In this document: piece by piece, positions 3,978-29,894 of the stretch
Position numbering within the stretch: position 1 is the stretch's first letter
Layout of the letters: each line of letters starts with the position of its first letter
Assembly (NCBI GenBank): GCA_035938215.1
Contig: DASZHC010000089.1
Location: 1-49,488 of the forward strand
DNA: 49,488 nt
DNA from: Chthoniobacterales bacterium
Lineage (GTDB): Bacteria > Verrucomicrobiota > Verrucomicrobiia > Chthoniobacterales > JAFAMB01
Direction of reading: 5' to 3'
Made by a program: the position numbers and the translations under genes
Notes under the pieces: generated by a model
The model's database searches: none
What the model was told of the DNA's origin: nothing
What the model saw: only the letters and a program-made list of their open reading frames with translations

Positions 3978-5098
3978 CGCAGTTTAAGCGTGGCAAGACC
4001 AAGGAAAGCAAACATGAGCGACATGATCCAGAAGCGCACGATGACCGTGTTCTCTTTCCAACCCATCAACTCGAAATGATGATGTAAGGGCGACATCAGA
4101 AGAACCCGTTTGCCTGTGAGCTTGAAACTCGCCACTTGAAGAATCACTGATAGCGCCTCGATCACAAAAATTCCCCCAATAACGATGAGGAGCAGTTCCT
4201 GCTTGCAGCAAATCGCGACTACCCCAAGGGTCCCGCCGATCGAGAGGGACCCGGTGTCACCCATAAACACTTTGGCCGGATGGCAGTTAAACCAAAGAAA
4301 CCCGAGTCCGGCTCCCACGAGCGATGTGCAAATGATCGTAAGTTCTTCGCTCTGTCGATAGAAGGGCAGGTCAAGGTAGGTCGCGACTCCCACATTTCCT
4401 GCGGCATAAGCCAGGATTGCATAGGTCGAGGCCACCGTCACTGTACAGCCTGTCGCCAAACCATCGAGGCCATCCGTGAGATTCACCGCATTTGAGGCGC
4501 CGACGATGACAATCGCGAAAAACAGAAGCGTGAACCATCCAAGATTGGCGATGATCGGTTCCTTGAAAAATGGAATATAAAGTTCCCTTGCCTGCACTTC
4601 GAGCGAGGGATTAGACAGGAAGAACGCGGTAACAATCGCCGCAAGAAGAAACTGGCATACGAGTTTAACCCGCCCGGGAATGCCGTCGGATTTTTTCTTC
4701 GTTACCTTGAGGTAATCATCCACAAAGCCGAGACCGGCCGTAAAGATAATTGTGAAAAGGCACAGCCATACGAATCCATTGTCAGGACGCGCCCATATGA
4801 TTGAGGATACCACGACAGAGCCCATAAATAAGACTCCACCCATCGTCGGCGTTCCCTTTTTTGCGCCATGAAGTTCGTAAAGCCGATGAACTTCATCGGC
4901 CGTTCGGATTGGTTGACCGAACTTTAAGGAGGTTAGTTTGCGAATGACCCAGTTCCCAAAGACGATGCAAAACAGAAACGCCGTAATCGCTGAACAGACC
5001 GCTCGAAAGGAAACATACTGGAATACGTTAAATCCTCCGGCAAGAGCATTTGGCCCCTGGCTCAGGTAATAGAGATAAAACATCATCGCAACCTCCAT
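3974..5098 (-). CDS. mraY: Phospho-N-acetylmuramoyl-pentapeptide transferase
   Basis: 374-aa multi-TM ORF with MraY motifs DDYLKV and NAVNLTDGLDGLA. The true start may be one of the Met codons a few residues in. Confidence 0.95.
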   Translation of the reverse strand: MEVAMMFYLYYLSQGPNALAGGFNVFQYVSFRAVCSAITAFLFCIVFGNWVIRKLTSLKFGQPIRTADEVHRLYELHGAKKGTPTMGGVLFMGSVVVSSIIWARPDNGFVWLCLFTIIFTAGLGFVDDYLKVTKKKSDGIPGRVKLVCQFLLAAIVTAFFLSNPSLEVQARELYIPFFKEPIIANLGWFTLLFFAIVIVGASNAVNLTDGLDGLATGCTVTVASTYAILAYAAGNVGVATYLDLPFYRQSEELTIICTSLVGAGLGFLWFNCHPAKVFMGDTGSLSIGGTLGVVAICCKQELLLIVIGGIFVIEALSVILQVASFKLTGKRVLLMSPLHHHFELMGWKENTVIVRFWIMSLMFAFLGLATLKLR

Positions 5099-6471
5099 CT
5101 CCCATTGCCTTTTGCAGCTTCGAGTCCTCGGACCACACGATCCATGGCGGATGATAGGCTCCCCTTCACCAAAAGCAGATCGCCGGGCTCCAGATAGTCG
5201 AGCAGCACCTCAACGGCTTGCTCGTGCGAGCTTGCCTCGCGCGTCCGCTTCAGACCGGCACCGTTGGCCGCCTGCGCTATTAATTGAGCCTCCTCCCCGA
5301 CGGTGACCAGGTAGTCGAAAGCTAACTCTGCAACCGCTCGCCCGACTTGCCGATGACCGGCATCCGACTCCTTTCCCAGCTCACCCATTCGCCCAAGCGC
5401 TGCTACTCTGCGTCCTCGAACGGCAAAACTTGTCGCAGTCTTCAAGGCGGCAACCATTGATTCGGGATTCGCGTTATAGGCATCGTTAATCACGAGAACC
5501 GCTCCGAGTCTTTGCACCTTCAACCGATTTCCAGGAATTGTTGTGTTGGCCAGTCCACAGGCAATTTCTTCCAGAATCAGGCCGAAGCCGAGTCCGACGC
5601 CGGCGGCAAGGCAGGCGTTCATCACCATGTGCTCGCCGTGAACCGGCAGCTTGACCAATGTGCTTTCAGACCCATGGCTCAGGATGAAAACTTCCCCCTT
5701 CTCGGTGTGTTGGATTTCTCGGGCCTGCAGGTCCCCGCGATTGATTCCCGCGCGAATCACCCGAGCCTTTGTGCGTGCAGCAAGCCAGTCAGTAAAATCA
5801 TCGTTCGCGTTCAGCACAACACATCCCCCTGCCGAAACCGATTCAACAACAATAGATTTTTCCTTAGCAATCGCTTCGCGCGACCCGAGATATCCGATGT
5901 GGGCGATGCCGATATTCGTAATCACAGCGAAATCGGGACGCGCGATCTCGCAAAGCGGCGCCAGTTCCCCGGCGTGATTCATTCCCATCTCGAAGACGCC
6001 AACTTCGTCCTCAGCGCCTGTGCCAAGAACAGTAAGCGGCAGACCGATATGATTGTTATAGTTCCCAACCGTTTTGCTGACAGATAGCCGTTCACTGAGC
6101 ACAGAGGCGGTCATTTCTTTGGTACTTGTCTTTCCGTTGCTTCCCGTCACCGCGACCGCTTTAATGCGAAGCTCGCTACGATACGCTTTTGCCATTTGCT
6201 GCAACCCTCGCAGCGTGTCAGAAACTTCGATCTGACTCAGGACCGCCAAGTCAGGTCTAACCCGGCTCACCAGCGCCCCAGCCGCGCCCGCCTCCTGGAC
6301 TTCCCCTAGAAAGCTGTGTCCGTCAAACTGGTCTCCACGCAAGGCAACAAAGAAGTCACCGCTCTGAACTAAGCGTGAATCCGTCACGATACGGCTCACC
6401 GTCATGCCGCTTCTGCCATGGATCTTTCCACCGACCCAATCAGCAATCTGGCTTAGCGTTCTACGATCCAT
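5083..6471 (-). CDS. murF: UDP-MurNAc-tripeptide--D-Ala-D-Ala ligase
   Basis: Motifs DSRLVQSGDFFVALRGDQFDGHSF and P-loop VTGSNGKTSTKEM. Start moved from ORF-track 6528 to the in-frame ATG at 6471 (MDRRTLSQIADW), because the upstream extension overlaps murE. Confidence 0.9.
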   Translation of the reverse strand: MDRRTLSQIADWVGGKIHGRSGMTVSRIVTDSRLVQSGDFFVALRGDQFDGHSFLGEVQEAGAAGALVSRVRPDLAVLSQIEVSDTLRGLQQMAKAYRSELRIKAVAVTGSNGKTSTKEMTASVLSERLSVSKTVGNYNNHIGLPLTVLGTGAEDEVGVFEMGMNHAGELAPLCEIARPDFAVITNIGIAHIGYLGSREAIAKEKSIVVESVSAGGCVVLNANDDFTDWLAARTKARVIRAGINRGDLQAREIQHTEKGEVFILSHGSESTLVKLPVHGEHMVMNACLAAGVGLGFGLILEEIACGLANTTIPGNRLKVQRLGAVLVINDAYNANPESMVAALKTATSFAVRGRRVAALGRMGELGKESDAGHRQVGRAVAELAFDYLVTVGEEAQLIAQAANGAGLKRTREASSHEQAVEVLLDYLEPGDLLLVKGSLSSAMDRVVRGLEAAKGNGRWRLR

Positions 6472-7951
6472 TTTTCGACAGTTCCACGGGGTGTTCTTCC
6501 AAAGCGCGAACCGCGACCTCGACGTCATCGAAAGGAATAGTGTGATCGCTGAACTCCTGCGTTTTCTCGTGCCCTTTTCCGGCGATCAAAACGATGTCCC
6601 TTGGCTTAGCTAACTCTATCGCGCGCCCGATCGCCTTTTTGCGATCGACGATTTTTTCATAACTCTTGCGTTTGAACCCCCCTTCAATATCGCGAATAAT
6701 CGCTTCAGGATCCTCTTTGCGCGGGTTATCTGAAGTGATAACTGTGAAATCTGCCAGTTGGTCGGCTGCGCTTCCCATCAGTGGCCGTTTTGACCTGTCC
6801 CGATTACCTCCGCACCCAAATACAACAATTAAACGGTTTGGATTCAAGTCGCGGCAGGTCCTTAGCACGTTAAATAACGCGTCATCAGTGTGCGCATAAT
6901 CGACAAAGACCTGGAACTGGCGCTTCGCGGAGACCGCTTCAAGCCGACCCGGTATCTGAGGAGCCCTTGCAAGAGCGGTAACCAATGTCCGGATGTCTAC
7001 GCCCACCGCAAAAGCAGCAGCCAACGCCGCCAGCGAGTTATAGATGTTAAAGCGCCCGATTAAGGGAAGTCGCACGAGATAGCTTTTCTCTCTGGCGTCG
7101 AGCTGGTAGGAAGTCCCGCTCAGTTCCACTTTGAAATTGCTCGCGCGAAAGTCCGCACGTGCTCCCATTCCGTAGGTGATCATCGCTATATCCCTGCCGA
7201 ATCGGGCGACTAATTGCTGCCCGTACGGATCATCAACATTGATAACCGCTGTCCTCGATTTTTTCTCGCTCGCACGCAGATTCTCGAAGAGCCGTGTCTT
7301 CGCTTCAAAGTAGTCTTTCATCCCCGGATGAAAATCCAGGTGATCTCTTGTCAGATTGGTAAACACTCCGACATCAAAGGCGATTTCATCCGCGCGGTTC
7401 CGAATTAACGCATGCGAGGAAACCTCGATCACTACATTTCGGCAACCGGCCTCGACGCAGTGCCTCAGGAGTTCCTGCAAATCAAGAGACTCCGGCGTGG
7501 TTCGATGAGCCGGCAGTACGCGTCTGCCAATCTCGTATTGGACCGTACCGATCAGTCCGCTCGGACGATTCGCTTTTTCAAGTAAATGTTTAACCAGGAA
7601 AGTCGTCGTGGTTTTTCCGTTCGTTCCGGTAACCCCAATCATCGTCAGCTCCTTGGCAGGTTCTCGGTAAAATGCGGAGGCCAACCGGGCAAGAGCTTCC
7701 CGCGAATCCGGCACAACAATCATCGTAGCCCTATGAGAAAGACCGACATATTCTCCAACGACTGCCACGGCTCCCTTCTCGACCGCCTGTTCGATAAATG
7801 AATGACCATCGAATTGTTCTCCTCGTATTGCGACAAAGAGATCTCCAGGGCCGGCTCGTCGCGAATCATAGGAAATGCCTCCTATGTCGCGGTTCACCGG
7901 GCCATCGATCGCGATAGCCCCTATCCCTCGAATGAGATCTGCCAGTTGCAT
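6461..7951 (-). CDS. murE: UDP-MurNAc-L-Ala-D-Glu--2,6-diaminopimelate (or L-Lys) ligase
   Basis: Motifs DSRRAGPGDLFVAIRGEQFDGHSF, GVTGTNGKTTTT and ITSDNPRKEDP. Start set at ATG 7951 (MQLADLIRG), 10 nt after the ftsI stop; the ORF-track start 8194 overlaps ftsI. Confidence 0.9.
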   Translation of the reverse strand: MQLADLIRGIGAIAIDGPVNRDIGGISYDSRRAGPGDLFVAIRGEQFDGHSFIEQAVEKGAVAVVGEYVGLSHRATMIVVPDSREALARLASAFYREPAKELTMIGVTGTNGKTTTTFLVKHLLEKANRPSGLIGTVQYEIGRRVLPAHRTTPESLDLQELLRHCVEAGCRNVVIEVSSHALIRNRADEIAFDVGVFTNLTRDHLDFHPGMKDYFEAKTRLFENLRASEKKSRTAVINVDDPYGQQLVARFGRDIAMITYGMGARADFRASNFKVELSGTSYQLDAREKSYLVRLPLIGRFNIYNSLAALAAAFAVGVDIRTLVTALARAPQIPGRLEAVSAKRQFQVFVDYAHTDDALFNVLRTCRDLNPNRLIVVFGCGGNRDRSKRPLMGSAADQLADFTVITSDNPRKEDPEAIIRDIEGGFKRKSYEKIVDRKKAIGRAIELAKPRDIVLIAGKGHEKTQEFSDHTIPFDDVEVAVRALEEHPVELSKNGS

Positions 7952-16770: not shown

Positions 16771-17697
16771 TTACGGGCGCACGATCCAAATTTCCACGAC
16801 GCGGTTCTTTTCAAGGTGCATCTTGTCGAACAGGTCGGAGCCGCCCATTCCGACCGCACGCATCAAGTTTGCGATTTTGGTCTTTCGATGGAGCAACCGG
16901 ACTAGGTTCTCCGCCCGGCTCCGTGAGACTTCCAGATTACGCTCGTCCGATCCTTTGAGATCCGAGTAGCCCGCTAAAACCAAAACCACAGTGGGATCCT
17001 CAAAAATTTTTGCGATCTCCGGTTTTGAGAGATTTTCCAAAAGATAGTTCGCCTGAAATGAGTCAGGCCAAAGCTGGCCAAAACCATAGGGGATTATCGC
17101 AAGCTTTGTGAAGCCGCGGGCTCGTTCGACCTGCGAATAGAGGAAGTCTTTCTCCTTAGGAGTGAGTTCCCGGACCATATCGATCCTTTTGAGAACCTCC
17201 TTTCGCGTGGCGTCCTCCTCTTGGATGTTTGCAACTACGGCAGGCGGCGTAGCCTGACTTGTCGCGCTGGGAATCGGAACATCTGTTCCGCTGCTCGCCG
17301 ATCCGGCGGACGCCGGAGAAGAATCCTGAGTCGGCGAAGACTCCTCGGGAGTGGATTCCGAAGAAGCGGGCGATGACTCCGGCGCGGGGGTTGGAGACTC
17401 CAAAGGGGTGCCTGATGAAGCACTCTCAGCTACAGGCAAATTTTCAGGGCCGGGCGATCCAAGCGGCTGCAAAGGACTCGTTTGCGGTGCCGCCTGCAAC
17501 GTCTCAGGCGAGGCGGAGGAGACCGGGCGCACCATCGAAACGTCCCGGTCCTGAAACGATCTGGGCACAACGAAAACGATAACAAACATTGCGACCAGAA
17601 AGAACAAAGCAGTTAGTCCCAAAAGCACCCAGATGCGGCTGGAGCTCCTGGTCGGCTTTCCGGTTTCCTCCGGTTTCGGATTGGAATTGTCTGCCAT
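16771..17697 (-). CDS. Membrane-anchored protein with Pro/Ser-rich linker and degenerate OmpA/MotB-like C-terminal domain
   Basis: 308 aa with an N-terminal TM helix and a low-complexity P/S/A/E linker. C-terminus LVLAGYSDLKGSDERNLEVSRSRAENLV...LEKNRVVEIWIV. Paralog of the next gene. Confidence 0.7.
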   Translation of the reverse strand: MADNSNPKPEETGKPTRSSSRIWVLLGLTALFFLVAMFVIVFVVPRSFQDRDVSMVRPVSSASPETLQAAPQTSPLQPLGSPGPENLPVAESASSGTPLESPTPAPESSPASSESTPEESSPTQDSSPASAGSASSGTDVPIPSATSQATPPAVVANIQEEDATRKEVLKRIDMVRELTPKEKDFLYSQVERARGFTKLAIIPYGFGQLWPDSFQANYLLENLSKPEIAKIFEDPTVVLVLAGYSDLKGSDERNLEVSRSRAENLVRLLHRKTKIANLMRAVGMGGSDLFDKMHLEKNRVVEIWIVRP

Positions 17698-17730
17698 ATA
17701 AAGGATAAACGGATGAATTTGTCGATACTT

Positions 17731-18492
17731 TCACGGCTGAACCGCCCAAACTTCGACCAATCTGTTTTTTTCCGGATTCGTTTGATCAAAAAGATTCTGT
17801 CCCCCCATCCCCACCGAGTGCATAACGTTCACAACGTCCATCTTTTGTTTCAACGCTTTAAGGACGCTCTCAGCGCGCGCCCTTGAAACTTCCAGGTTTT
17901 TCGATTCCTCTCTCTGTTTATCGGCGAATCCAACCATAACAAGTAAGACAGTCGGATCGGCGATGAGCTTCTGCATTTCCGGCTCCTTGAAATGCTTAAC
18001 AAGAGCCTCGATTTGTGCAGGACTCGGGGTGGTCCCGCTTTTTGAGAAAGGAATGACTGCAATCTTCCGGAACCCCTTGGCTCGCTCGACTTGAGCATAA
18101 AGTTTGTCTTTGTCGCCTTGGGAAAGAGGTTTCATTAGATCGATCCGATTTAGCACTTCCTGCCGCATTGCGTCCTGCTCGACAAGATCGGCCACAATAG
18201 GCGGCGCGTTGTTCTCATCCCCATTCGCGGAAGTTGCATTTTCAATGCCAATGGTTGTTCCCGAAGGCGCTTCCGCCCTGCGATCGAGGCTGGAGGTTGT
18301 GGTCGTATTGGTCCCGCCATTCCTTCCGGCAATCGATTTCAAAGCAATAAAGATTCCCGTTGCCAGGCCAGCCGCTGCGAATAGCAACGCCATGCCAATA
18401 ATCAGCCAAACTCCGGCGGGGGTTTTGAGAGGTCCTCTGCGGCGTGAAGCGTATTCTTCTCTGCGTGAAGCTCTGGGTAAAGGCTTCGCCAT
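17731..18492 (-). CDS. Membrane-anchored OmpA/MotB-like protein (paralog of 16771..17697)
   Basis: 253 aa with a TM helix. C-terminus LVMVGFADKQREESKNLEVSRARAESVL...PEKNRLVEVWAV aligns by eye with its neighbour. Confidence 0.7.
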   Translation of the reverse strand: MAKPLPRASRREEYASRRRGPLKTPAGVWLIIGMALLFAAAGLATGIFIALKSIAGRNGGTNTTTTSSLDRRAEAPSGTTIGIENATSANGDENNAPPIVADLVEQDAMRQEVLNRIDLMKPLSQGDKDKLYAQVERAKGFRKIAVIPFSKSGTTPSPAQIEALVKHFKEPEMQKLIADPTVLLVMVGFADKQREESKNLEVSRARAESVLKALKQKMDVVNVMHSVGMGGQNLFDQTNPEKNRLVEVWAVQP

Positions 18493-18501
18493 CTCCGAAA
18501 T

Positions 18502-18576
18502 CTAGTCAGATATGGGCGCTTCGCTCGCGCCTTGACCTGCGGCGACATCACCACTATATGTGGGGCGGTGCACTAG
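18502..18576 (-). repeat. Family A repeat copy, CTAG-bounded, filling the glyQS/ompA-like spacer
   Basis: Minus-strand reading: CTAGTGCACCGCCCCACATATAGTGGTGATGTCGCCGC, then a truncated X module, then CTAG. CTAG 18573-18576 contains the glyQS TAG stop. Confidence 0.75.
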
Positions 18577-19937
18577 TAGATCCTATCAACGAGAAACGAT
18601 CTAAGTTCGCCGATCGGTACCCGTACCTGCTTCATCGAGTCTCTTTCTCTAATCGTGATGGTCCCCTGATTGGAGGGCCCATTCTCGCCGATGGTGTCGA
18701 AGTCCACCGTAACACCAAAGGGAGTTCCTACCTCGTCTTGACGGCGATAGCGTCGACCAATCGCGCCCGACTCGTCATAAAAAACCATCATATGCGGACG
18801 CAATGACTCGACGATCTCGCGAGCCCGCCTGACCAATCTTTCATTATTCTTCAGCAAAGGGAAAATGCCGCATTTGATTGGGGCCATGCGCGGATGGAAT
18901 TTAAGGACGGTTCTGGTTTCGGCTTTGCCTTCCTGATCGGCTATCGTTTCCTCACAAAACGCCGCACAAATCAATGCGAGCACGGTGCGATCCACGCCGG
19001 CACTGGGTTCGACTACGTGCGGTACGAAACGTTGGCCGGTCTCCTCGTCAAAATACTCAAGCGATTTGCCGCTCGCTTTTTGATGTTGCGAAAGATCATA
19101 GTCTGTTCGGTAAGCAACTCCTTCTAACTCCTGCACACCAAACGGGAAGTGAAATTCAATGTCATACGTGCCTTGGGAATAATGAGCGCGTTCTTCGGGA
19201 GGAATTTTATGAACATGCAGGAGATCGGAAGAAATTCCTATGTCTTGATAAAATTTCAGACGTTCCTTTAACCAGTATTCAAGAAGTTCGACTCCATCTT
19301 CCGGTCGACAAAAATATTCTAACTCCATCTGCTCAAATTCCCGCGAGCGAAATGTGAAATTGCGCGGATTGATCTCATTTCTGAACGCTTTTCCTATCTG
19401 TGCAATACCGAAAGGCACTTTTTTCCGCGAGACCTCGAGAACGTTTTTGAATTGAACAAATATCGCTTGGGCAGTCTCCGGGCGAAGATAGGTGATCGCT
19501 GACTCATCTTCAGTCGCACCTACATATGTTTTAAACATCAGGTTGAAGGCCCGAGCTTCCGTCAGATCAAAACTGCCGCAAACCGGGCAGTGTAGCTTGC
19601 CATCCTTTTCCGGCAATTGATCGGCGCGCAACCTGGATTTGCAACTTCGGCAGTCGACCATCGGATCGCTGAATGTCGCTTCATGCCCGCTCGCAACCCA
19701 AACCTGGCGATTCATCAGGATCGATCCGTCCATGCCGACAATATCGTCCTGTTCTCTGACCATGCGACGCCACCAGAAATCCTTGAGGTTGCGCTTCAAT
19801 TCCGTACCCAAGGGCCCGTAGTCCCAGCATCCGTTCAGCCCTCCATAAATCTCACTGGACTGCATAATAAAGCCGCGCCGCTTGCACAGGCTGACAATTT
19901 TCTCCATTCGTTCCGAAGCCGACTTATCTTGGGTCAT
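18573..19937 (-). CDS. glyQS: Glycine--tRNA ligase (alpha2 GlyQS type)
   Basis: 454 aa with class II motifs, including GKAFRNEINPRNFTFRSREFEQMELEYF, and an anticodon-binding C-terminus. Confidence 0.95.
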   Translation of the reverse strand: MTQDKSASERMEKIVSLCKRRGFIMQSSEIYGGLNGCWDYGPLGTELKRNLKDFWWRRMVREQDDIVGMDGSILMNRQVWVASGHEATFSDPMVDCRSCKSRLRADQLPEKDGKLHCPVCGSFDLTEARAFNLMFKTYVGATEDESAITYLRPETAQAIFVQFKNVLEVSRKKVPFGIAQIGKAFRNEINPRNFTFRSREFEQMELEYFCRPEDGVELLEYWLKERLKFYQDIGISSDLLHVHKIPPEERAHYSQGTYDIEFHFPFGVQELEGVAYRTDYDLSQHQKASGKSLEYFDEETGQRFVPHVVEPSAGVDRTVLALICAAFCEETIADQEGKAETRTVLKFHPRMAPIKCGIFPLLKNNERLVRRAREIVESLRPHMMVFYDESGAIGRRYRRQDEVGTPFGVTVDFDTIGENGPSNQGTITIRERDSMKQVRVPIGELRSFLVDRIY

Positions 19938-20066
19938 AGGCAGGTACCGAACGTCAACGAACCCGAGCCGACGTCAATCAAAATCGCCGATTGGGGCAAA
20001 CGGCCTCCCTCTAGAATGCTTCGCGTTGGATTCTATTTGGGTTCGTTGTATAGTCCGCCGTTTGTT

Positions 20067-21068
20067 ATGGCCCAATATTCAGAGAACGCGATCGCGGATA
20101 GCACCGCATCGCTAAGACGTTGGATACTTCCGGCGATCGCCCTGTCATTCCTGTTTCACACAGGACTTTATTACTATTTCAGTCACAAAAGCCTCGAGCG
20201 GTTTGCGGCGAATGACACTCCCCGGTTGGTTCCTAGAGTTTTCAATGTGAACCGGTTGCAAGTCGATCAGAAGCTGTTGCAATCCGATTCCAAGCCCGCC
20301 AGCACCCCGGGCAGGGCACAGGGTGACTCCAACACCCTGAAGAATATCACCCGGTTCGACGGATCGTTTGAAAAGGATATGCGCGACCTGCGGGCGACTC
20401 CGGAGGCGAATTCGCCTGAGGTCGCACAGCTCAAAGAGAAGCCTAGCGTCGATTCGCAGGCTGCCCAAGCGGCCGCCGCGAAAGCAAAAGCTGAAAGCGC
20501 CGCCGCTGTTGAGAAGGAGCTAAGCGAGGTGCGCCAACAGTTGCTTTCAGATAAACCCGATGTTCCCAATCGGCCTAAGCTCGCGGCCGGCAGGAAACCC
20601 CCTGGCAAACCCGACAGCGAAGATGATATCACTGCCGCTGCAGGCATCCCAGCGGGTTTCAGCAACCTGGATGAACTGCTGTCCGGTTCGGGTAAACTCG
20701 GGAGCGGAACCGCACCGATTATCATGCCAACAGATCTGTTATTTGACTACGATTCGGCGAATCTCCGGCCAGGAGCTACCGCCAGCCTCCAAAAATTGGG
20801 CCGGCTAGTTCAACGGAACCCTCAGTCCGTTTTCAAGGTGGAGGGGCATACCGACTCTTTTGGCAGCGATCCGTACAACCTTGACCTGAGCCAGAGGAGG
20901 GCTGAGACCGTAAAATCCTGGCTCGTAGAAAATATGAGCATCGATCCGGATCGCATTCAAACGCAGGGATACGGTAAGTCCCGTTTGCTCGTCCCTGGCG
21001 ATCGTTCCGTTGAGGAGCAACAGCTCAACCGCCGCGTCGAAATCGTTATCCGAACGAAGAAAGGCTAG
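20067..21068 (+). CDS. OmpA-family peptidoglycan-binding protein with N-terminal membrane anchor
   Basis: Start set at ATG 20067 (MAQYSEN; the ORF-track start 19617 is antisense to glyQS). TM helix WILPAIALSFLFHTGLYYYF. Canonical OmpA_C: FDYDSANL...VEGHTDSFGSDPYNLDLSQRRAETV...NRRVEIVI. Confidence 0.85.
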   Translation: MAQYSENAIADSTASLRRWILPAIALSFLFHTGLYYYFSHKSLERFAANDTPRLVPRVFNVNRLQVDQKLLQSDSKPASTPGRAQGDSNTLKNITRFDGSFEKDMRDLRATPEANSPEVAQLKEKPSVDSQAAQAAAAKAKAESAAAVEKELSEVRQQLLSDKPDVPNRPKLAAGRKPPGKPDSEDDITAAAGIPAGFSNLDELLSGSGKLGSGTAPIIMPTDLLFDYDSANLRPGATASLQKLGRLVQRNPQSVFKVEGHTDSFGSDPYNLDLSQRRAETVKSWLVENMSIDPDRIQTQGYGKSRLLVPGDRSVEEQQLNRRVEIVIRTKKG

Positions 21069-21124
21069 TGTGCCGTCTCGCGTATAATGGTGGTGTCGCC
21101 GCTATATGCGACACGGCACACTAG
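21065..21124. repeat. Family A minimal palindromic element; probable bidirectional terminator hairpin
   Basis: 60 bp: two 22-nt arms (CTAGTGTGCCGTCTCGCGTATA and its inverse, 2 mismatches) around the 16-nt core ATGGTGGTGTCGCCGC. The two terminal CTAGs provide the TAG stops of the convergent genes ending at 21068 (+) and 21121 (-). GTTTTT follows on the plus strand. Confidence 0.8.
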
Positions 21125-22299
21125 GTTTTTGGCATAACGCCGATATATCTCGCTCTGGGCCGGATAACCGTTTGGCTTGAATTCTGTTCGGCTGCGTGTC
21201 CGATCCAGCCCGCGAGTCTGCCAAGGGCGAATAAATGAAATCCGGCCTGGGACGGAAGTCCCAGGACGCTCCCTGCGGCCGCAAGCGCCATGTCGAGATT
21301 GGCAAAACGTTGAAGTGTGCGTTCCGACTGCGCGATGACGCGGCAGATCTTCGAATACCCGTCTGGATACTCTTCTTTCAGCAACTGGAAGATTAGCTTT
21401 GCCCGGGGGTCTCCTCCGGGATAGGCCGGATGCCCGAAACCCGATATCTCTTCGCCAGAGCGAAGAAGGCTATAGATCAGCTGGCGAACGCTTCCCCCAA
21501 GCAACTGCCGGAGCAGAAGTTCAGCCCTGGTTGAAGCTCGTCCATGACGGGAACCGGAAAAAGCGCACATCGCAGCGCTGACGATCTCGTAAATATTCGA
21601 GCCAGCGGAAGTCACCACACGCGCTGTAAATGAAGAAACATTCAATTCGTGATCCAGGGTCAAAATCAGAACGGCGTTCAGAATTCGTTGCGCGCCAGGG
21701 CGACTCCTGCACCAGCATTCCTGAAGCTCGCCGGCTGCCCGGCGGAGCTCGGGATTTTGCTTCCTCGTCAAAATCGCCAGGAACTGCCGCACGATAGCAG
21801 CTCCAGTTGAACCGAGTGCGGGAAATTGGAGGTGATATCCCGCGGGATCTGTGGACGAAAGGTCGCTGAGCCAGGATTTGAGGGTCTGGAAAGGATCTGA
21901 TCCGCTTTTGTGCCAGTGATGAACAGGGCCGGAAGCGACAAAGCAAGAATCCCAACTGCCGGTCCAAAACCAGCACGCTACCTCCCAGAAAGAGTGCGTA
22001 CGAGCGAGGTCGAGGGCGTTTGCACCTCTGTAGTAGAGATTTTCGTTTGCGATCAGCGTTAGGGCTGAATCCAGGATGGGAGCTCCCCAAAGCAACGTTG
22101 ACTGCACCTCGCTCTGCGGTCTGCTCCGAATTCGCTTTCTTGCCTTTAATTGATCAATATCGAGACGATTGTAGAGACGCGAACGGGAGTCTTTTCCTTG
22201 CAGTGAGCGGATCAAGCCTCGGCTGACGTACGCGTAAAGGGTCGGTTTAGATATATCAAGAATCGCTGCCGCCTCCTCGGCCGAGAGATAGACATCCAT
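21121..22299 (-). CDS. Citrate-synthase-family protein with N-terminal excisionase/MerR-type HTH
   Basis: 392 aa. N-terminus LSAEEAAAILDISKPTLYAYVSRGLI (HTH_17-like). The body carries citrate-synthase-like motifs: DHELNVSSF, SGSRHGRAS, GFGHPAYPGGDPRA, ANLDMA, GRLAGWIGHAAEQ...IRPRARYIG. Confidence 0.85.
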   Translation of the reverse strand: MDVYLSAEEAAAILDISKPTLYAYVSRGLIRSLQGKDSRSRLYNRLDIDQLKARKRIRSRPQSEVQSTLLWGAPILDSALTLIANENLYYRGANALDLARTHSFWEVACWFWTGSWDSCFVASGPVHHWHKSGSDPFQTLKSWLSDLSSTDPAGYHLQFPALGSTGAAIVRQFLAILTRKQNPELRRAAGELQECWCRSRPGAQRILNAVLILTLDHELNVSSFTARVVTSAGSNIYEIVSAAMCAFSGSRHGRASTRAELLLRQLLGGSVRQLIYSLLRSGEEISGFGHPAYPGGDPRAKLIFQLLKEEYPDGYSKICRVIAQSERTLQRFANLDMALAAAGSVLGLPSQAGFHLFALGRLAGWIGHAAEQNSSQTVIRPRARYIGVMPKT

Positions 22300-22315
22300 G
22301 GAATGATAGAAAGAT

Positions 22316-22337
22316 ATATTGATTTATGAATCAATAT
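22316..22337. promoter_or_regulatory. Perfect 9-4-9 palindrome in the divergent promoter region (candidate operator)
   Basis: ATATTGATT-TATG-AATCAATAT lies in the 72-nt spacer between the ATGs at 22299 (-) and 22372 (+). Confidence 0.55.
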
Positions 22338-22371
22338 TGAATTCTGCAAATGCCGTTGTTTAGTCCACGTA

Positions 22372-23667
22372 ATGAATGCGCCCCCTGAATCCCCAAACTA
22401 CTTCGCGCACCAGTTTCCAAAAGAAAGTTTTCCACAATACGGTTGGCTGTCCCGCCCTGACTCATTTCCAGCTGAGGTCTGGAGCACCGAAACGACACAT
22501 CGTGACGGCCAGCAAGGAGGCTTGCCCTTAAACACCCAACAAAGTCTTCGAATCTACGATCTCCTTTGCCGGTTTACCGGATCTTCAGGCGCAATCCGAC
22601 AGGCCGAATTCTTTGTGTATCGAAAGCAGGATCTCGATGCGTTTCGCGCCGTGCAGGAACGCTACGCCCAGGGAGCCCCAATCGAACCGACGACCTGGAT
22701 TCGGGCCGCGGCAAAAGATGTGAAATTGATCCAGTCGCTCGGAGTGCGCGAATCAGGTCTTCTCGCTTCAATCTCGGACTATCATGTGTTTCACAAATTT
22801 CATCCCGGTGGCCGTCTGCAGGCCGTCGAGATCTACCTGGATGCGGTTAGGATGGCACTCGACGCCGGCATTCGGCCGCGTCTCCATTTGGAAGACATAT
22901 CGCGAGCTGACATAGACTTCGTCCGTCGGTTCGTGCAATTGGTGCTCGAACGGGCATCGAACTATCCGGCGTCCCTCCGCCCGAAATTTCGAGTCTGCGA
23001 CACCTTGGGATTGGCGCTGCCGGATGAAGATGTGCCACTTCCGCGAGGAATACCGAAACTGATCAAAGCCCTTCGAGCCACGGGACTGGAATCGATTGAT
23101 CTTGAGTTTCATCCGCACAACGACACCGGCTTGATCGTAGCGAACTGTCTTTCTGCCATCCGACATGGATGCGCAGTCATCAACGGAACCTGCCTTGGGA
23201 AGGGAGAACGGACAGGGAATGCGCCCTTGGAACTCATTCTGTTTCACTTGATCGGAATGGGTTACTACGGGTCCTGCAAACCAAACTTCAAGGCGCTAAA
23301 TGAGCTCGCAAAAATGTACTCCGAGATGGGCCAACCCCTTGCCGATAAATATCCGATCTACGGGCGCGACGCTCATCGCACTCGTGCCGGGATTCACGCC
23401 GACGGCTTGAACAAATTCTGGTGGATGTACGCCCCGTTCGACGTTCCCAAATTGATTGGCAGGCCGCTCGAAGTGTCGCTTACCAAGGATTCCGGGCTCG
23501 CCGGTCTTATTTTTATTACGCGCCAACGCCTTCAAAAAGACTTCGACAAAAACAATTCAATGATCCAGCGAGCACACCAATGGATGCAACAACAATTTGA
23601 TGAAGGACGTCAGACAGCGGTTGAATGGGAAGAAATCGAAAAATTCTTCGCCAGCGGCGCGAGTTGA
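22372..23667 (+). CDS. HMGL-like (DRE-TIM) acyl-CoA:2-oxoacid condensing enzyme (homocitrate / isopropylmalate / Re-citrate-synthase family)
   Basis: 431 aa with motifs ETTHRDGQQ, HPHNDTGLIVAN and GKGERTGNAPLE. Substrate cannot be assigned by eye. Confidence 0.85.
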   Translation: MNAPPESPNYFAHQFPKESFPQYGWLSRPDSFPAEVWSTETTHRDGQQGGLPLNTQQSLRIYDLLCRFTGSSGAIRQAEFFVYRKQDLDAFRAVQERYAQGAPIEPTTWIRAAAKDVKLIQSLGVRESGLLASISDYHVFHKFHPGGRLQAVEIYLDAVRMALDAGIRPRLHLEDISRADIDFVRRFVQLVLERASNYPASLRPKFRVCDTLGLALPDEDVPLPRGIPKLIKALRATGLESIDLEFHPHNDTGLIVANCLSAIRHGCAVINGTCLGKGERTGNAPLELILFHLIGMGYYGSCKPNFKALNELAKMYSEMGQPLADKYPIYGRDAHRTRAGIHADGLNKFWWMYAPFDVPKLIGRPLEVSLTKDSGLAGLIFITRQRLQKDFDKNNSMIQRAHQWMQQQFDEGRQTAVEWEEIEKFFASGAS

Positions 23668-26756: not shown

Positions 26757-26882
26757 GTCCCAGAGTGGCAAGTGACACAACCCTGGTTTGGGGACGGTGG
26801 CTCCGCGGGACCTGTAGGCGCCCTTGCGTTGGCCGAATTGCCACCCGATCGGGTGATTGAGGTCGGTTTGAGTCTGCCTAGG

Positions 26883-26923
26883 CTAGTGTGCCGTCTCGCA
26901 TATACACTAGTGTACCGTTTCGG
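26883..26923 (+). repeat. Family A partial copies (tandem left arms)
   Basis: CTAGTGTGCCGTCTCGCATATA followed directly by CACTAGTGTACCGTTTCGG, 8 nt before the kinase ATG. Confidence 0.65.
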
Positions 26924-26930
26924 AAATAGG

Positions 26931-29894
26931 ATGGATTTTGGATCTTTTAAACGACGCGTGCAGGATGCCATTGCAATTTCGAGCGGGCGGCGTATTACCC
27001 GAAACGATTGGAATCTGGCTGACAATCTTTCCGGTGACAGGCAAATTGTGGCCGGAAACGTTTATCACAACAGGTTTGAGGAAATGCCGGAATCGCTGGA
27101 ATTCGAGCATTATCAGGTTCTGACAAATGCAGACGGCTCTCTGATGGAGCTTGGGCGCGGAGCCATGGGAGTTACCTACAAGGCTTTCGATACCAATCTC
27201 CATTGTTATGTGGCTTTAAAGGTCATCAGCTCCGCTCTCTTGGATAGTGAGACTGCTGCCGATCGTTTCCTTCGAGAAGCGAGAGCTGCTGCACGGTTAC
27301 GGCATCGCAATGTTGCTTCGGTTTTCCATCTGGGTAAGCATGCCGACAGCTACTTCTATTCGATGGAGTTCATTGACGGGGAAACGCTGCTGCACCGAGT
27401 CAAGAGAGACGGACCGCTCGACTGCCTTTTTGCTCTCGACATCACCCAGCAAGTCGCCTGCGCCCTTATCGCTGCGGACGAACAGCAACTCGTTCACCGC
27501 GACATCAAACCCTCCAATGTGATGCTGGCTCGGGAAAGTGACGGGGAAATTCTTGCAAAGGTGATCGATTTCGGCCTCGTGAAGTCCGCCGTTGGAGATT
27601 CGAGTGCCGCCGGCGAACTCACGATGCGAGGTTTCGTTGGCACGCCCTATTTTGCAAGTCCCGAACAACTGGATCGTCAGCAGGAAGATATCCGATCCGA
27701 CATCTATTCTCTCGGCGTAACGCTTTGGTACATGCTAACCGGCAAACCCACGTTTGTGGGCTCGATGGCCAGCGTGATTGCGCAACACCTGGAAAAATCA
27801 CCACCGTTCGAGTCGCTGGCGATTCTGCCCGCACAGGTGGTTGGTGTTTTGCGGCGGATGCTCGAGAAGGAGAGGTCGCGCCGTATTCAGACCCCGTCGG
27901 AGCTCCGGACTGAATTGAAACACTGTATTGAAAACCTCGCAGCGGAAAGACTCGCGGAGAGGCCGTCGGCACCCCCGGCAGAAAGTTTCGAAACAATCGA
28001 GCTGACAAGCGCAGATCGGCCCCCGGTGTCCCGTCCTGAATCCGGCTCGCTCTTGAAGAATCGATATCGCTTGATCGAGGATGTTAATCCGGCAAATCCC
28101 GGTCATACCTTTCACGCGGAAGATCTTGTAACAAGCGCACGCATCACGGTTCGCGTTTTCATGGCGGCGCCTGATTTGCTCAATGAAATTGATCAGCGAG
28201 CGGCACTCCTGCCTTCTGTGCTGCACCCAAACTTCATTCATGTTTTTGCGGCCGAGCGGGAAAAAGGTTTCAGCTTTGTCGCCTTTGAATGGCTTGAAGG
28301 CTTCGCTCTTGTCGATCTCCTCCGTGCGCGCGGTGCGCTGACTTTGCGAGAATCGCTGTTTCTCTTGAAACAGATAGCGTCCGCAGTTGATGCAGCGCGC
28401 CAATGGAGAACGGAGCTTGAGATTAGCTTGCGCGATATTCTCGTTCATTTTCCGGACAGCCTTGTGGATCCTGCTGCTTCCAACGTCTTGCTTCGGTGCC
28501 CGTTGGATGAGTGGCCTACATTCGTGGTGAAACTGAGTCTCCTCGCCGAAATCAAGGAACTCGAAGCCGCCGCAGAGGGCTTCCAGGAACGTACGATGAT
28601 CTCCGATCTAAAGCCGCAACAGGATGTGGTGCAACTCGGAATTCTGGTTTACGAACTACTGGGTGGCAAGCCGGGCGGGTTCGCACCTCTCGCAAATGTA
28701 TCGGAAAGAGGAAACGAAATCCTCCGGAGATGCCTTACTCCTGGGCGAGGTTTTTCCACAGCAACGGAGTTTTATGATGCTCTCAACGGAGTTGCGGCGG
28801 CCAAGCCGTCAACGATTCCGGCCATTTTGAAAGTGTCAGAGCCGACTCAGGCTTCACAGACTCGCTTTGCTCCAACCCCGGCGGTGCCCCCCTCTCGAGA
28901 ATCTGCGCCTGCACCTGAATCCCCTCCTCAGCGTGCCATGCAAAAAACAGGAGCCTTGATCGCAGCTGTCGTAGTCGGCGGAACATTGGCAGCAGGAGGC
29001 GTTCTCTGGCTTTACTTGTCCGGAATCTCCAGCCCGGTCTCAAGCGCGAACCCGGATCTGTCAACGCCAAAACAGGCCTTGAGTTCGGCTTTTCATCCAT
29101 CGCCACCCCAACCGGGCAAAGCCTGGACGAATAGTCTTGAGATGCGGTTTGTTCCGCTCGGCGACATCTACATTTCCGTTTGGCAGACCCGCGTTCGTGA
29201 CTTTGACGCGTTCGTTGCGGCAACCGGCTACGACGCCATCGGAGGAATGTCCTCCGCTATCACGCAAAATGGGTTCAAGCTCAATCAGATGAGCTGGAAG
29301 GACCCTGGTTTTTCTCAGACGCCCGATCATCCCGTCGTCGGTGTAAGTTGGGAAGATGCAAACCAGTTCTGCGCTTGGCTCACAAAAAAGGAACGGAGTG
29401 AAGGAACACTGAGGAATTTTCAGAGCTATCGGTTGCCGACGGATCGGGAATGGAGCGAGGCAATCGGGCTGCAACATGAGGTGGGCGCAACGCCGGCGGA
29501 TCGGAGCGCAAAAATCAAAGGGGTTTATCCATGGGGCTCGGCATTCCCGCCGCCAGTCGACACACTAAACTATGCTGGAAGCGAATCTCGCGCTGGAGCA
29601 CCCGATACCTGGGCGGTAATCCCAGATTATCATGATGCATTTCCTCGAACGGCGCCAGTCACCGCTTTCAATCCTAACACACGCGGTCTCTGCTCCCTGG
29701 GCGGAAACGTTTGGGAATGGTGCATGGATAAATTTGAAACCGGACTGAGCTGGCGAACCCTCCGAGGCGGGTCTTGGGCTACCTCCCGACAGGAAGAGAT
29801 GCTTTCTTCGTACCGTCGCGGATATGGATCGCTTTTTCGCTCGGATGATATCGGCTTTCGCTGTGTGATAGCGTCCAATGGAGGCGACAAATGA
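26931..29894 (+). CDS. Transmembrane receptor Ser/Thr kinase: kinase + kinase-like (probably inactive) domain + TM + periplasmic FGE-sulfatase domain
   Basis: Start set at ATG 26931. Active kinase motifs GRGAMGVTY, VALKVI, HRDIKPSN, DFG, SPE. The second kinase-like repeat has degenerate motifs (ITVRVF, SLRDILV). TM helix GALIAAVVVGGTLAAGGVLWLYL. C-terminal FGE motifs HPVVGVSWEDA, GGNVWEWC, RGGSW, GFRCV. Confidence 0.9.
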   Translation: MDFGSFKRRVQDAIAISSGRRITRNDWNLADNLSGDRQIVAGNVYHNRFEEMPESLEFEHYQVLTNADGSLMELGRGAMGVTYKAFDTNLHCYVALKVISSALLDSETAADRFLREARAAARLRHRNVASVFHLGKHADSYFYSMEFIDGETLLHRVKRDGPLDCLFALDITQQVACALIAADEQQLVHRDIKPSNVMLARESDGEILAKVIDFGLVKSAVGDSSAAGELTMRGFVGTPYFASPEQLDRQQEDIRSDIYSLGVTLWYMLTGKPTFVGSMASVIAQHLEKSPPFESLAILPAQVVGVLRRMLEKERSRRIQTPSELRTELKHCIENLAAERLAERPSAPPAESFETIELTSADRPPVSRPESGSLLKNRYRLIEDVNPANPGHTFHAEDLVTSARITVRVFMAAPDLLNEIDQRAALLPSVLHPNFIHVFAAEREKGFSFVAFEWLEGFALVDLLRARGALTLRESLFLLKQIASAVDAARQWRTELEISLRDILVHFPDSLVDPAASNVLLRCPLDEWPTFVVKLSLLAEIKELEAAAEGFQERTMISDLKPQQDVVQLGILVYELLGGKPGGFAPLANVSERGNEILRRCLTPGRGFSTATEFYDALNGVAAAKPSTIPAILKVSEPTQASQTRFAPTPAVPPSRESAPAPESPPQRAMQKTGALIAAVVVGGTLAAGGVLWLYLSGISSPVSSANPDLSTPKQALSSAFHPSPPQPGKAWTNSLEMRFVPLGDIYISVWQTRVRDFDAFVAATGYDAIGGMSSAITQNGFKLNQMSWKDPGFSQTPDHPVVGVSWEDANQFCAWLTKKERSEGTLRNFQSYRLPTDREWSEAIGLQHEVGATPADRSAKIKGVYPWGSAFPPPVDTLNYAGSESRAGAPDTWAVIPDYHDAFPRTAPVTAFNPNTRGLCSLGGNVWEWCMDKFETGLSWRTLRGGSWATSRQEEMLSSYRRGYGSLFRSDDIGFRCVIASNGGDK

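What the first reader, a model, noticed from the sequence alone, without database searches (positions are those of the whole stretch)
21121..23667. HTH-fused citrate-synthase-like protein divergent from an HMGL-type condensing enzyme, with a perfect palindrome between them
The minus-strand gene fuses an excisionase/MerR-type HTH to a full citrate-synthase fold. That fold keeps motifs corresponding to the catalytic His/His/Asp (SRHGRAS, GFGHPAY, ANLDMA).

The divergent gene, 72 nt away, is a DRE-TIM/HMGL enzyme. This family includes homocitrate, isopropylmalate and Re-face citrate synthases.

The spacer contains ATATTGATT-TATG-AATCAATAT (22316..22337), a perfect 9-4-9 inverted repeat of the kind bound by dimeric HTH proteins.

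Hypothesis: the citrate-synthase fold acts as a ligand sensor for an oxaloacetate, acyl-CoA or citrate-like metabolite, possibly still with catalytic activity. It would control a second, unrelated Claisen-condensing enzyme. To my knowledge, the function of HTH-citrate-synthase fusions has not been established.
Basis: partly seen in the sequence, partly recalled or inferred. Interest (0 to 1): 0.6.

Follow-up and report, generated by a model that had tools for sequence, protein, structure and literature searches.

The report
Citrate-synthase-derived regulator controlling a Re-citrate-synthase-like gene
A DNA-binding domain fused to a complete citrate-synthase body sits back-to-back with a Re-citrate-synthase-like gene. 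The pair and the DNA site between them are nearly unchanged across distant bacterial phyla, which points to an unstudied family of enzyme-derived gene switches for citrate-type synthesis.

Summary

- **Conserved module.** The two genes are adjacent and divergent in every related genome that has both. The same pair recurs in Chloroflexota and other phyla (44 of about 63 usable loci). The fusion is the only conserved neighbour.
- **Conserved site.** ATATTGATT-N4-AATCAAnATTGAC is kept almost letter for letter wherever the fusion is present, although the regulators are only 37-62% identical. It is missing where the fusion is missing. It abuts the -35 box (TTGACA) of the target promoter and lies about 17-25 nt from the regulator's start codon in most loci.
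- **Intact pocket.** The catalytic His/His/Asp and all oxaloacetate-binding residues are conserved, but about 20 positions invariant in working citrate synthases are relaxed.
- **The HMGL gene.** It belongs to a tight, distinct clade whose nearest relatives carry the motifs of Clostridium kluyveri-type Re-citrate synthase.
- **Alternative targets.** In other Chloroflexota the same regulator family and the same site precede an ordinary Si-type citrate synthase gene.

Earlier agents of this scan found the Si-type version on other DNA. I found no paper on this family.

Most likely this is a dimeric, autoregulated, metabolite-sensing regulator, probably a repressor. Ligand, sign and enzyme product are inferred, not shown.

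The parts
21121..22299 (-). Gene for the 392-aa HTH-citrate-synthase fusion, the proposed regulator
   Evidence: ORF and translation. Pfam finds HTH_17 plus Citrate_synt. The AlphaFold2 model has mean pLDDT 89. Foldseek top hits are dimeric type-II citrate and methylcitrate synthases.
22135..22290 (-). HTH_17 / MerR-like DNA-binding domain (residues 4-55)
   Evidence: PF12728 scores 39.2 bits against a cut-off of 27. L14, T20, Y22, Y24, V25, S26, R27, R31, R41 and Y43 are at least 95% conserved across 38 fusions from several phyla. The model shows a low-confidence linker at residues 64-74.
21154..22092 (-). Complete citrate-synthase-fold domain (residues 70-382), the proposed ligand sensor
   Evidence: PF00285 matches model positions 2-357 of 357. 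H252, H290 and D336 are kept in 36-37 of 38 family members. D216 (38/38), H217, N220 (37/38), R299, R361 (38/38) and R380 (37/38) are kept too. The score is 128.6 bits against a 421.3 cut-off for TIGR01800.
22316..22337 (.). Perfect 9-4-9 palindrome ATATTGATT-TATG-AATCAATAT, the proposed operator. The TTGAT/ATCAA cores are 11 bp apart.
   Evidence: Read directly. Conserved in all orthologous loci and across phyla. It is the only exact site in the 3.2-Mb assembly.
22337..22365 (+). Promoter-like element of the HMGL gene: TTGAAT (22337-22342), a 17-nt spacer, then TTAGTC (22360-22365). The ATG at 22372 follows, so the mRNA is probably leaderless.
   Evidence: TTGAC(A) directly after the palindrome is conserved in nearly all loci. 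In Chloroflexota it is followed after about 17 nt by TATGAT, TATGCT or TACTCT. This reading is inferred. No transcription start site has been mapped.
22303..22330 (-). Promoter-like element of the regulator gene: TTCATA, 16 nt, TATCAT. It overlaps the palindrome and ends 4 nt before the ATG, so this mRNA is probably leaderless too.
   Evidence: Consensus scan: 1 site found against 0.4 expected from shuffles. Weak evidence, inferred.
22372..23667 (+). Gene for a 431-aa DRE-TIM/HMGL enzyme of a distinct Re-citrate-synthase-like clade (motifs TETTHRDGQQ, FHPHNDT, LNKFWWM), the proposed regulated target
   Evidence: Pfam and NCBIfam results. Homologues are 63-79% identical across phyla. The nearest other relatives, at 37-42% identity, carry TDTTFRDGQQ and WHGHNDF as in the C. 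kluyveri and S. aciditrophicus Re-citrate synthases. The clade has 100/100 support in the tree.

Best explanation
The fusion protein is a one-component transcription factor built from a citrate synthase.

**Proposed mechanism**
- The citrate-synthase body forms the usual dimer. This places two N-terminal HTH_17 domains on the two TTGAT/ATCAA half-sites, which are 11 bp apart.
- The site touches the -35 box of the divergent Re-citrate-synthase-like gene and overlaps the regulator's own promoter. Bound protein therefore controls both genes.
- I consider repression with autorepression more likely than activation.
- The intact oxaloacetate/citrate pocket senses oxaloacetate, an acyl-CoA or citrate. 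The known open-to-closed domain movement of the fold would change how the two HTH domains sit on DNA.
- The target enzyme most likely condenses acetyl-CoA with oxaloacetate or a close analogue. That would make it an auxiliary citrate synthase of the Re type.

**Shown:** domain architecture, conservation of the pair, conservation and co-occurrence of the site, residue conservation, kinship of the target.

**Inferred:** DNA binding, sign of regulation, ligand, enzyme product.
For: 1. **Architecture.** HTH_17 plus a full citrate-synthase fold.
2. **Pair in related genomes.** In 61 related genomes the HMGL gene matched in 23 and the fusion in 21. Both were found only in the window's own family, and they are adjacent and divergent wherever both were found.
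3. **Pair in other phyla.** Among 80 named loci from Verrucomicrobiota, Chloroflexota (including cultured Thermosporothrix hazakensis) and others, the fusion is the divergent neighbour in 44. It is the only neighbour family shared by more than 8 loci.
4. **Site conservation.** The site matches ATTGATT-N4-AATCAAT with at most 2 mismatches in 36 of 41 loci with the fusion. It is absent (4 or more mismatches) in 27 of 32 loci without it. Three of the four apparent exceptions are fusions cut by contig ends. Flanking intergenic DNA is not conserved, even between genera.
5. **HTH conservation.** HTH residues are nearly invariant across the family, matching the invariant site.
6. **Position.** The site abuts TTGAC(A) with a canonical 17-nt spacer and -10 box in Chloroflexota. 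It lies about 17-25 nt from the regulator's start in most loci.
7. **Regulon size.** There is a single exact site in the genome. The one near-match lies inside a >1000-aa ORF. This fits a dedicated local regulator.
8. **Sensor pocket.** The catalytic triad and oxaloacetate-binding residues are conserved.
9. **Alternative targets.** In a sample of 200 Chloroflexota genomes, fusions 37-42% identical carry the same site in front of a Si-type citrate synthase that passes NF009005 (351.7 bits against 332). These regulators are interleaved with the Re-type-paired ones in the tree.
Against: - No experiment exists, and DNA binding is inferred from co-occurrence only. Related genomes are not independent samples.
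- The sign of regulation is unknown. A site centred roughly 10 bp upstream of -35 could also serve an activator.
- The Verrucomicrobial -10 boxes are poor matches to consensus, which could mean the promoter needs activation.
- Retention of the complete catalytic triad is just as well explained by a working enzyme.
- One locus (L086) has the site but no fusion within 4 kb.
- The target differs from characterised Re-citrate synthases at pocket and metal-site positions (His for Phe, HPHND for HGHND). It also occurs in organisms that, from general knowledge rather than any test here, are aerobes, whereas known Re-citrate synthases are oxygen-sensitive (PMC12016533).
- This genome already has three canonical citrate synthases.
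Confidence: 0.72

Rival explanations
1. The fusion is a trigger enzyme: a catalytically active citrate or 2-methylcitrate synthase that also binds DNA, in the manner of BirA or PutA. Turnover, or a bound reaction intermediate such as citryl-CoA, would set its DNA affinity. This overlaps with the best explanation and differs only in that the domain still catalyses the reaction.
For: - H252, H290 and D336, plus all oxaloacetate-binding Arg and His residues, are kept in 36-38 of 38 members across phyla.
- The full fold is predicted with pLDDT 89.
Against: - About 20 positions invariant in 14 working citrate synthases are relaxed or replaced in the fusion clade. Examples: GPLHGGA becomes G-x-K/R-HGG-x, MGFGHRVY becomes PGFGH-x-LY, and a conserved C-terminal Arg is lost.
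- The fusion clade sits on a long separate stem.
- It scores 128.6 bits against a 421.3 cut-off for the citrate synthase II subfamily, and 176 bits on the Pfam model against 425-447 for the genome's three canonical enzymes.
Confidence: 0.3
2. The fusion is an activator rather than a repressor. When bound just upstream of -35 it recruits RNA polymerase to a weak promoter.
For: - In the Verrucomicrobial loci the -10 region is far from consensus (TTAGTC, TGTTTC, TTCGCT).
- The site does not cover the -10 box or the start site of the target promoter.
Against: - In Chloroflexota the promoter is near-consensus (TTGACA, 17 nt, TATGAT/TATAGT), which normally needs no activator.
- Extra TTGAT/ATCAA half-sites occur in the spacer or after the -10 box there.
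- The site overlaps the regulator's own promoter-like element.
Confidence: 0.3
3. The HMGL enzyme is not a citrate synthase. It condenses acetyl-CoA with a different 2-oxo acid, for example a phosphonate or phosphinate analogue as PMMS/FrbC do, or another dicarboxylic oxo acid. The regulator would then sense that pathway's metabolite.
For: - It forms a distinct clade on a long stem.
- His replaces Phe in the TTxRDGQQ pocket motif, and HPHND replaces HGHND.
- JGI labels some homologues 2-phosphinomethylmalic acid synthase.
- The genome already has three canonical citrate synthases.
Against: - No biosynthetic neighbours are conserved. Only the regulator recurs.
- The same regulator family and site control bona fide Si-type citrate synthase genes elsewhere, which argues that the targets are functionally equivalent.
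- The regulator's pocket keeps the oxaloacetate-binding residues.
Confidence: 0.3
4. The palindrome is bound by some other factor, or is only a promoter element, and the fusion is merely a neighbouring gene.
For: - On its own the core is not statistically unusual in the window.
- One locus has the site without the fusion nearby (L086).
Against: - Presence and absence of the site track the fusion almost perfectly across phyla.
- The site follows the fusion to different target genes: Si-type citrate synthase, an MFS transporter, a CMD-family gene.
- Loci without the fusion use other regulators (GntR, a stand-alone HTH_17) and lack the site.
Confidence: 0.05

Closest known systems
Enzyme-derived one-component regulators: MocR/GabR/PdxR (winged HTH + aminotransferase fold) and BzdR (HTH + shikimate-kinase-like domain; PMC3602430, seen)
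   Same: An N-terminal DNA-binding domain is fused to a complete enzyme fold that serves as the effector-binding and dimerising module. They act as local regulators, often divergent from their target.
   Different: The sensor fold here is citrate synthase and the DNA-binding domain is HTH_17/MerR-like. I found no published member with this architecture in five literature searches.
Trigger enzymes BirA and PutA (general knowledge), and Caulobacter CitA moonlighting (PMC7083601)
   Same: A metabolic enzyme, or its fold, is coupled to control of gene expression or the cell cycle. The catalytic residues are retained.
   Different: BirA and PutA are proven active enzymes, and Caulobacter CitA has no DNA-binding domain. 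Here several residues invariant in working citrate synthases are lost and activity is untested.
Bacillus subtilis CcpC and CitR, LysR-type regulators of citrate synthase genes
   Same: A dedicated regulator of a citrate synthase gene that responds to a TCA-cycle metabolite. CitR is divergent from the minor citrate synthase gene citA.
   Different: A completely different protein family and effector domain.
Re-citrate synthase of Clostridium kluyveri (CKL_0973) and Syntrophus aciditrophicus (SYN_02536); Li et al. 2007, cited in PMC12016533
   Same: For the HMGL gene, the shared features are:
- the DRE-TIM fold;
- an N-terminal extension;
- shared motif blocks, Re-CS versus this protein: SGIIKQTEFFLY / SGAIRQAEFFVY, SDYHIF / SDYHVF, GIRPRCHLEDITRAD / GIRPRLHLEDISRAD, TRAGIHADG in both, and a C-terminal GRxT block.

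The nearest non-orthologous relatives carry the Re-CS motifs.
   Different: - It is a separate, tight clade (100/100 support, stem length 0.87) only 37-42% identical to those relatives.
- TETTHRDGQQ replaces TDTTFRDGQQ, and FHPHNDT replaces WHGHNDF.
- It is found in Chthoniobacterales, Ktedonobacteria and Meiothermus rather than in strict anaerobes.
- No activity data exist.
MerR-family regulators and BldC (PMC5859096, PMC8113463; seen)
   Same: An N-terminal MerR-like/HTH_17 helix-turn-helix with an AT-rich repeat site.
   Different: The site lies upstream of -35 at a promoter with a normal 17-nt spacer, not between -35 and -10 of a 19-20-nt spacer promoter. Dimerisation would come from the citrate-synthase body rather than a coiled coil.

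Membership tests
Si-type citrate synthase (working enzyme, PF00285) | Complete citrate-synthase fold (large and small domains) | tested here: met
   PF00285 covers model positions 2-357 of 357. Foldseek aligns 350-377 columns to type-II citrate and methylcitrate synthases, with TM 0.64-0.73.
Si-type citrate synthase (working enzyme, PF00285) | Catalytic His/His/Asp and the oxaloacetate-binding His/Asn/Arg residues | tested here: met
   H252, H290 and D336, and H217, N220, R299, R361 and R380, are present here and in 36-38 of 38 family members.
Si-type citrate synthase (working enzyme, PF00285) | Scores above curated cut-offs and keeps the other positions invariant in working enzymes | tested here: not met
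   The best NCBIfam hit, TIGR01800, scores 128.6 bits against a cut-off of 421.3. About 20 positions that are at least 90% invariant in 14 catalytic citrate synthases differ in the fusion clade. The clade sits on a long separate stem.
Si-type citrate synthase (working enzyme, PF00285) | Citrate synthase activity | not testable with these tools
   Needs an enzyme assay.
MerR-family transcription regulators | N-terminal MerR-type HTH | tested here: inconclusive
   HTH_17 is above its cut-off (39.2 against 27). MerR_1 is just below (21.1 against 21.6), and MerR scores 21.7 against 28.2. No solved-structure relative was found by sequence.
MerR-family transcription regulators | Operator between -35 and -10 of a promoter with a 19-20-nt spacer | tested here: not met
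   The site lies directly upstream of TTGAC(A). Spacers to the -10 box are about 17 nt.
Re-citrate synthase (C. kluyveri type), for the HMGL gene | DRE-TIM/HMGL catalytic domain with metal ligands (RDG Asp, HxH) | tested here: met
   PF00682 E 1.7e-27. R44, D45 and H247-P-H249-N-D are invariant in 16 homologues.
Re-citrate synthase (C. kluyveri type), for the HMGL gene | Family signature motifs TDTTFRDGQQ and WHGHNDF, and clade membership | tested here: inconclusive
   Many motif blocks are shared with CKL_0973 and SYN_02536. However, this protein has His for Phe and HPHND for HGHND and falls in a separate 100/100 clade. A full alignment to the published sequences could not be run, because they have no reference usable in the tools.
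Re-citrate synthase (C. kluyveri type), for the HMGL gene | Re-face stereochemistry and citrate as product | not testable with these tools
   Needs an enzyme assay with a stereochemical read-out.
HTH-citrate-synthase regulator family (unpublished; noted by earlier agents of this scan) | HTH_17 + citrate-synthase fusion, next to a TTGAT-N6-ATCAA site followed by TTGAC, in front of a target gene | tested here: met
   True in this window. The same site and the same family lie in front of Si-type citrate synthase genes in Chloroflexota. All fusions form one clade (97% support).

The most novel reading that the evidence does not exclude
Citrate-synthase-derived regulators form a widespread, unrecognised family of transcription factors. 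They sense oxaloacetate, acetyl-CoA or citrate through a retooled active site, and one near-invariant operator is used across phyla. Their targets have been swapped between two unrelated enzyme folds that make the same product. If so, the TETTHRDGQQ clade would be a new Re-type citrate synthase that works in aerobic bacteria, where only oxygen-sensitive Re-citrate synthases of anaerobes are known.
Probability: 0.35. Interest if true: 0.8.

Novelty: new variant of a known kind. Interest (0 to 1): 0.66.

Why it matters
- **Annotation.** Thousands of proteins named "citrate synthase" in databases may be gene regulators. That distorts metabolic reconstructions which count citrate synthase genes.
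- **A clean test case.** The module has two genes, one 26-nt site, and is present in a cultured organism (Thermosporothrix hazakensis). It is well suited to studying how an enzyme fold becomes an allosteric DNA-binding switch.
- **A clue to an unknown enzyme.** The regulatory link gives a functional hint for an uncharacterised, highly conserved Re-citrate-synthase-like clade (63-79% identity across phyla). It suggests that Si-type and Re-type enzymes can replace each other under one control circuit.
- **Possible tool.** The operator/regulator pair could serve as a biosensor for TCA-cycle entry metabolites.

Tried and rejected
- Gene context was taken from the search for related loci and the genome search instead.
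- **MerR-type geometry.** An operator inside a long spacer was considered and rejected from the promoter layout.
- **Larger regulon.** Rejected. There is only one exact site in the genome, and the single 1-mismatch site lies inside a >1000-aa ORF.
- **Biosynthetic cluster (phosphinothricin-like PMMS).** Rejected, because no neighbour other than the regulator is conserved.
- **Phylum-wide distribution in Verrucomicrobiota.** Not found in 300 other genomes, nor in the 24 genomes of other families of the same order. The module is patchy and probably moved horizontally.
- **HTH domain against solved structures.** A sequence search returned nothing meaningful.
- **Protein atlas.** It gave only generic HMGL names.
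- **Literature.** Five searches found no description of the fusion. The "citrate synthase-like" SCO5831 mention is unrelated to regulation.
- **Alignment to published Re-citrate synthases.** A formal alignment and percent identity could not be computed, because the sequences exist only as supplement text. I compared short motifs by eye and used motif-bearing database representatives instead.
Full report
**1. Observation**

The window holds ORF 21121-22299 (-), 392 aa, and ORF 22372-23667 (+), 431 aa, separated by 72 nt.
- Pfam assigns HTH_17 to residues 4-55 of the first protein (39.2 bits, cut-off 27). It assigns Citrate_synt to residues 70-382, spanning the whole model (181.7 bits). The second protein is HMGL-like (E 1.7e-27).
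- The palindrome ATATTGATT-TATG-AATCAATAT lies exactly at 22316-22337.
- The core of the palindrome is not statistically remarkable within the window. What follows rests on comparative evidence.

**2. Genome setting**

Names of close homologues and of the fetched records place the window in Chthoniobacterales, Verrucomicrobiota.
- The assembly (3.2 Mb, 285 contigs, 88% complete) has three canonical citrate synthases scoring 425-447 bits on the Pfam model. The fusion scores 176 bits.
- It also has two canonical HMGL-family synthases besides the one here.
- The flanking genes are unrelated and convergent on both sides: an OmpA-domain protein, glycyl-tRNA-synthetase-like, PEBP and an AI-2E transporter. 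The module is therefore two genes.

**3. The pair is conserved**

- In 61 related genomes the HMGL gene matched in 23 and the fusion in 21. Both were found only in the window's own family, and they are adjacent and divergent wherever both were found.
- Neither was found in 24 genomes of other families of the order. The fusion was not found in 300 further genomes of the phylum.
- A scan of one genome per species found 294 relatives of the HMGL protein. The best 80 loci are 63-79% identical. They come from Verrucomicrobiota, many Chloroflexota (Anaerolineae, Aggregatilineales, Ktedonobacteria including Thermosporothrix hazakensis and Dictyobacter), Meiothermus and others.
- The fusion is the divergent neighbour in 44 of about 63 loci with enough flank. 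It is the only neighbour family that recurs in more than 8 loci.
- The enzyme is more conserved (65-79% identity) than the regulator (41-62%) within the family.

**4. The site is conserved and tracks the fusion**

- In all 19 orthologous loci of related genomes the intergenic DNA is unalignable except for ATTGATT-N4-AATCAAyATTGAC.
- Across the 80 named loci, a match with at most 2 mismatches lies upstream of the HMGL gene in 36 of 41 loci with the fusion (4 weak, 1 none). It is absent in 27 of 32 loci without the fusion.
- Three of the four "motif without fusion" cases are fusions truncated by a contig end. Only L086 is a real exception.
- Loci without the fusion have other arrangements: a GntR gene in Meiothermus, HlyD-MFS genes upstream, or a stand-alone 98-143-aa HTH_17 protein in some Ktedonobacteria.
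- The HTH residues are nearly invariant across 38 fusions, which fits an invariant site.
- The genome holds one exact site. The only 1-mismatch site lies inside a long ORF.

**5. Promoter layout**

- The right arm is followed after one base by TTGAC(A). In Chloroflexota a 17-nt spacer and TATGAT, TATGCT, TACTCT or TATAGT follow, which makes a near-consensus sigma-70 promoter. Extra TTGAT/ATCAA half-sites often lie in the spacer or after the -10 box.
- In the Verrucomicrobial loci the ATG follows TTGAC by 33-37 nt. This suggests leaderless mRNA, and the -10 box is poor.
- The regulator's start codon is about 17-25 nt from the site in most loci. A promoter-like element for it overlaps the palindrome.
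- This is not the MerR layout. I favour repression with autorepression, but an activator cannot be excluded.

**6. The sensor domain**

- The AlphaFold2 model (pLDDT 89) shows a small N-terminal winged-helix-like unit, a low-confidence linker (residues 64-74) and a full citrate-synthase fold. Its best structural matches are M. tuberculosis methylcitrate synthase and CitA, and PrpC.
- Across 38 fusions, H252, H290 and D336 are kept in 36-37 members. H217, N220, R299, R361 and R380 are kept in 37-38.
- Compared with 14 working citrate synthases, about 20 positions invariant in the enzymes are relaxed. These include residues flanking both catalytic histidines and a C-terminal Arg.
- The fusions form one clade on a long stem.
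- I conclude that the oxaloacetate/citrate pocket is preserved. Whether catalysis survives is open.

**7. The target enzyme**

- The NCBIfam best hit is NifV homocitrate synthase at 146 bits against a cut-off of 463. The closest solved structures are homocitrate and citramalate synthases.
- JGI labels some homologues "citrate (Re)-synthase" or "2-phosphinomethylmalic acid synthase".
- Table S1 of PMC12016533 prints the C. kluyveri and S. aciditrophicus Re-citrate synthases. They share the N-terminal extension and many motif blocks with this protein.
- In a search of 1.8 billion representatives the orthogroup collapses to one representative at 67% identity. The next full-length relatives (37-42%) carry TDTTFRDGQQ and WHGHNDF, the Re-citrate-synthase signature.
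- In the tree the TETTHRDGQQ group is a 100/100 clade on a long stem, and its Verrucomicrobial members are monophyletic.
- It is therefore Re-citrate-synthase-like but a distinct subfamily, with His for Phe in the pocket motif and HPHND for HGHND.

**8. Link to the rest of the fusion family**

Earlier agents of this scan reported the same kind of fusion, beside Si-type citrate synthase genes with a near-identical site, on other DNA. I tested this.
- Fifteen of 201 sampled Chloroflexota genomes carry fusions 30-43% identical to this one (37-43% for all but one).
- In six of the fetched loci (L121-L126) the fusion is divergent from a Si-type citrate synthase that passes NF009005 (351.7 bits against 332). 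ATATTGATTCATCAATCAACATTGACA lies between them.
- In two more the site precedes a convergent citrate synthase gene.
- Three are paired with the HMGL gene.
- Paralogues in Thermosporothrix and Dictyobacter sit beside an MFS transporter and a CMD-family gene, with similar sites.
- In the regulator tree, the Si-paired and Re-paired members are interleaved.

The same switch therefore drives two unrelated enzyme folds. This is the best available argument that the HMGL enzyme makes citrate or something very close to it.

**9. Verdict**

The most likely mechanism is a dimeric, autoregulated, metabolite-sensing regulator derived from citrate synthase that controls an auxiliary Re-type citrate-synthase-like gene.

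I found no publication on this family in five searches. Within this scan the family has been seen before.

DNA binding, ligand, sign of regulation and enzyme product all need experiments.

Noticed in passing
window 21060-21129: An imperfect inverted repeat (27-nt arms, 85% complementary, 16 nt apart) fills the gap between the convergent OmpA-domain gene and the fusion gene. Its CTAG ends supply both TAG stop codons.
   Followed up: partly
L030 (G033), L032 (G028), L031 (G025): In three assemblies of the same family with few (20-40) contigs, the fusion gene is split into two or three frames, and one HMGL copy has an internal TGA. These are either assembly indel errors or decaying copies.
   Followed up: no
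L063, L072, L079, L081, L097, L099: In some Ktedonobacteria and other Chloroflexota (MAGs) the gene next to the HMGL gene, divergent in most of these loci, encodes a stand-alone 98-143-aa HTH_17 protein homologous to the N-terminus of the fusion. In L097 a weak patatin-like gene follows it. The usual site is absent there.
   Followed up: partly
L041, L077, L085, L091: In several loci without the fusion, the HMGL gene lies directly downstream of HlyD-like and MFS transporter genes on the same strand. This hints at export of the product or a link to efflux.
   Followed up: no
L119 (Thermosporothrix, 4550-7839) and L120 (Dictyobacter, 4015-5990): Paralogous HTH-citrate-synthase fusions sit divergent from an MFS transporter plus isochorismatase, and from a CMD-family gene. 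GTTGATT-N4-AATCAAC-type sites lie between them, so the family's targets are not limited to citrate synthases.
   Followed up: partly
window 26772-29894: A 1040-aa protein combines a Ser/Thr protein kinase domain with a C-terminal FGE-sulfatase (formylglycine-generating-enzyme-like) domain.
   Followed up: no
window 16771-21068: Three genes with OmpA-family C-terminal domains cluster around the glycyl-tRNA-synthetase-like gene. Two of them are weak matches, below the Pfam cut-off.
   Followed up: no
L119 2348-4135: A ResT/TelK-type telomere resolvase domain protein lies next to the Thermosporothrix paralogous module.
   Followed up: no
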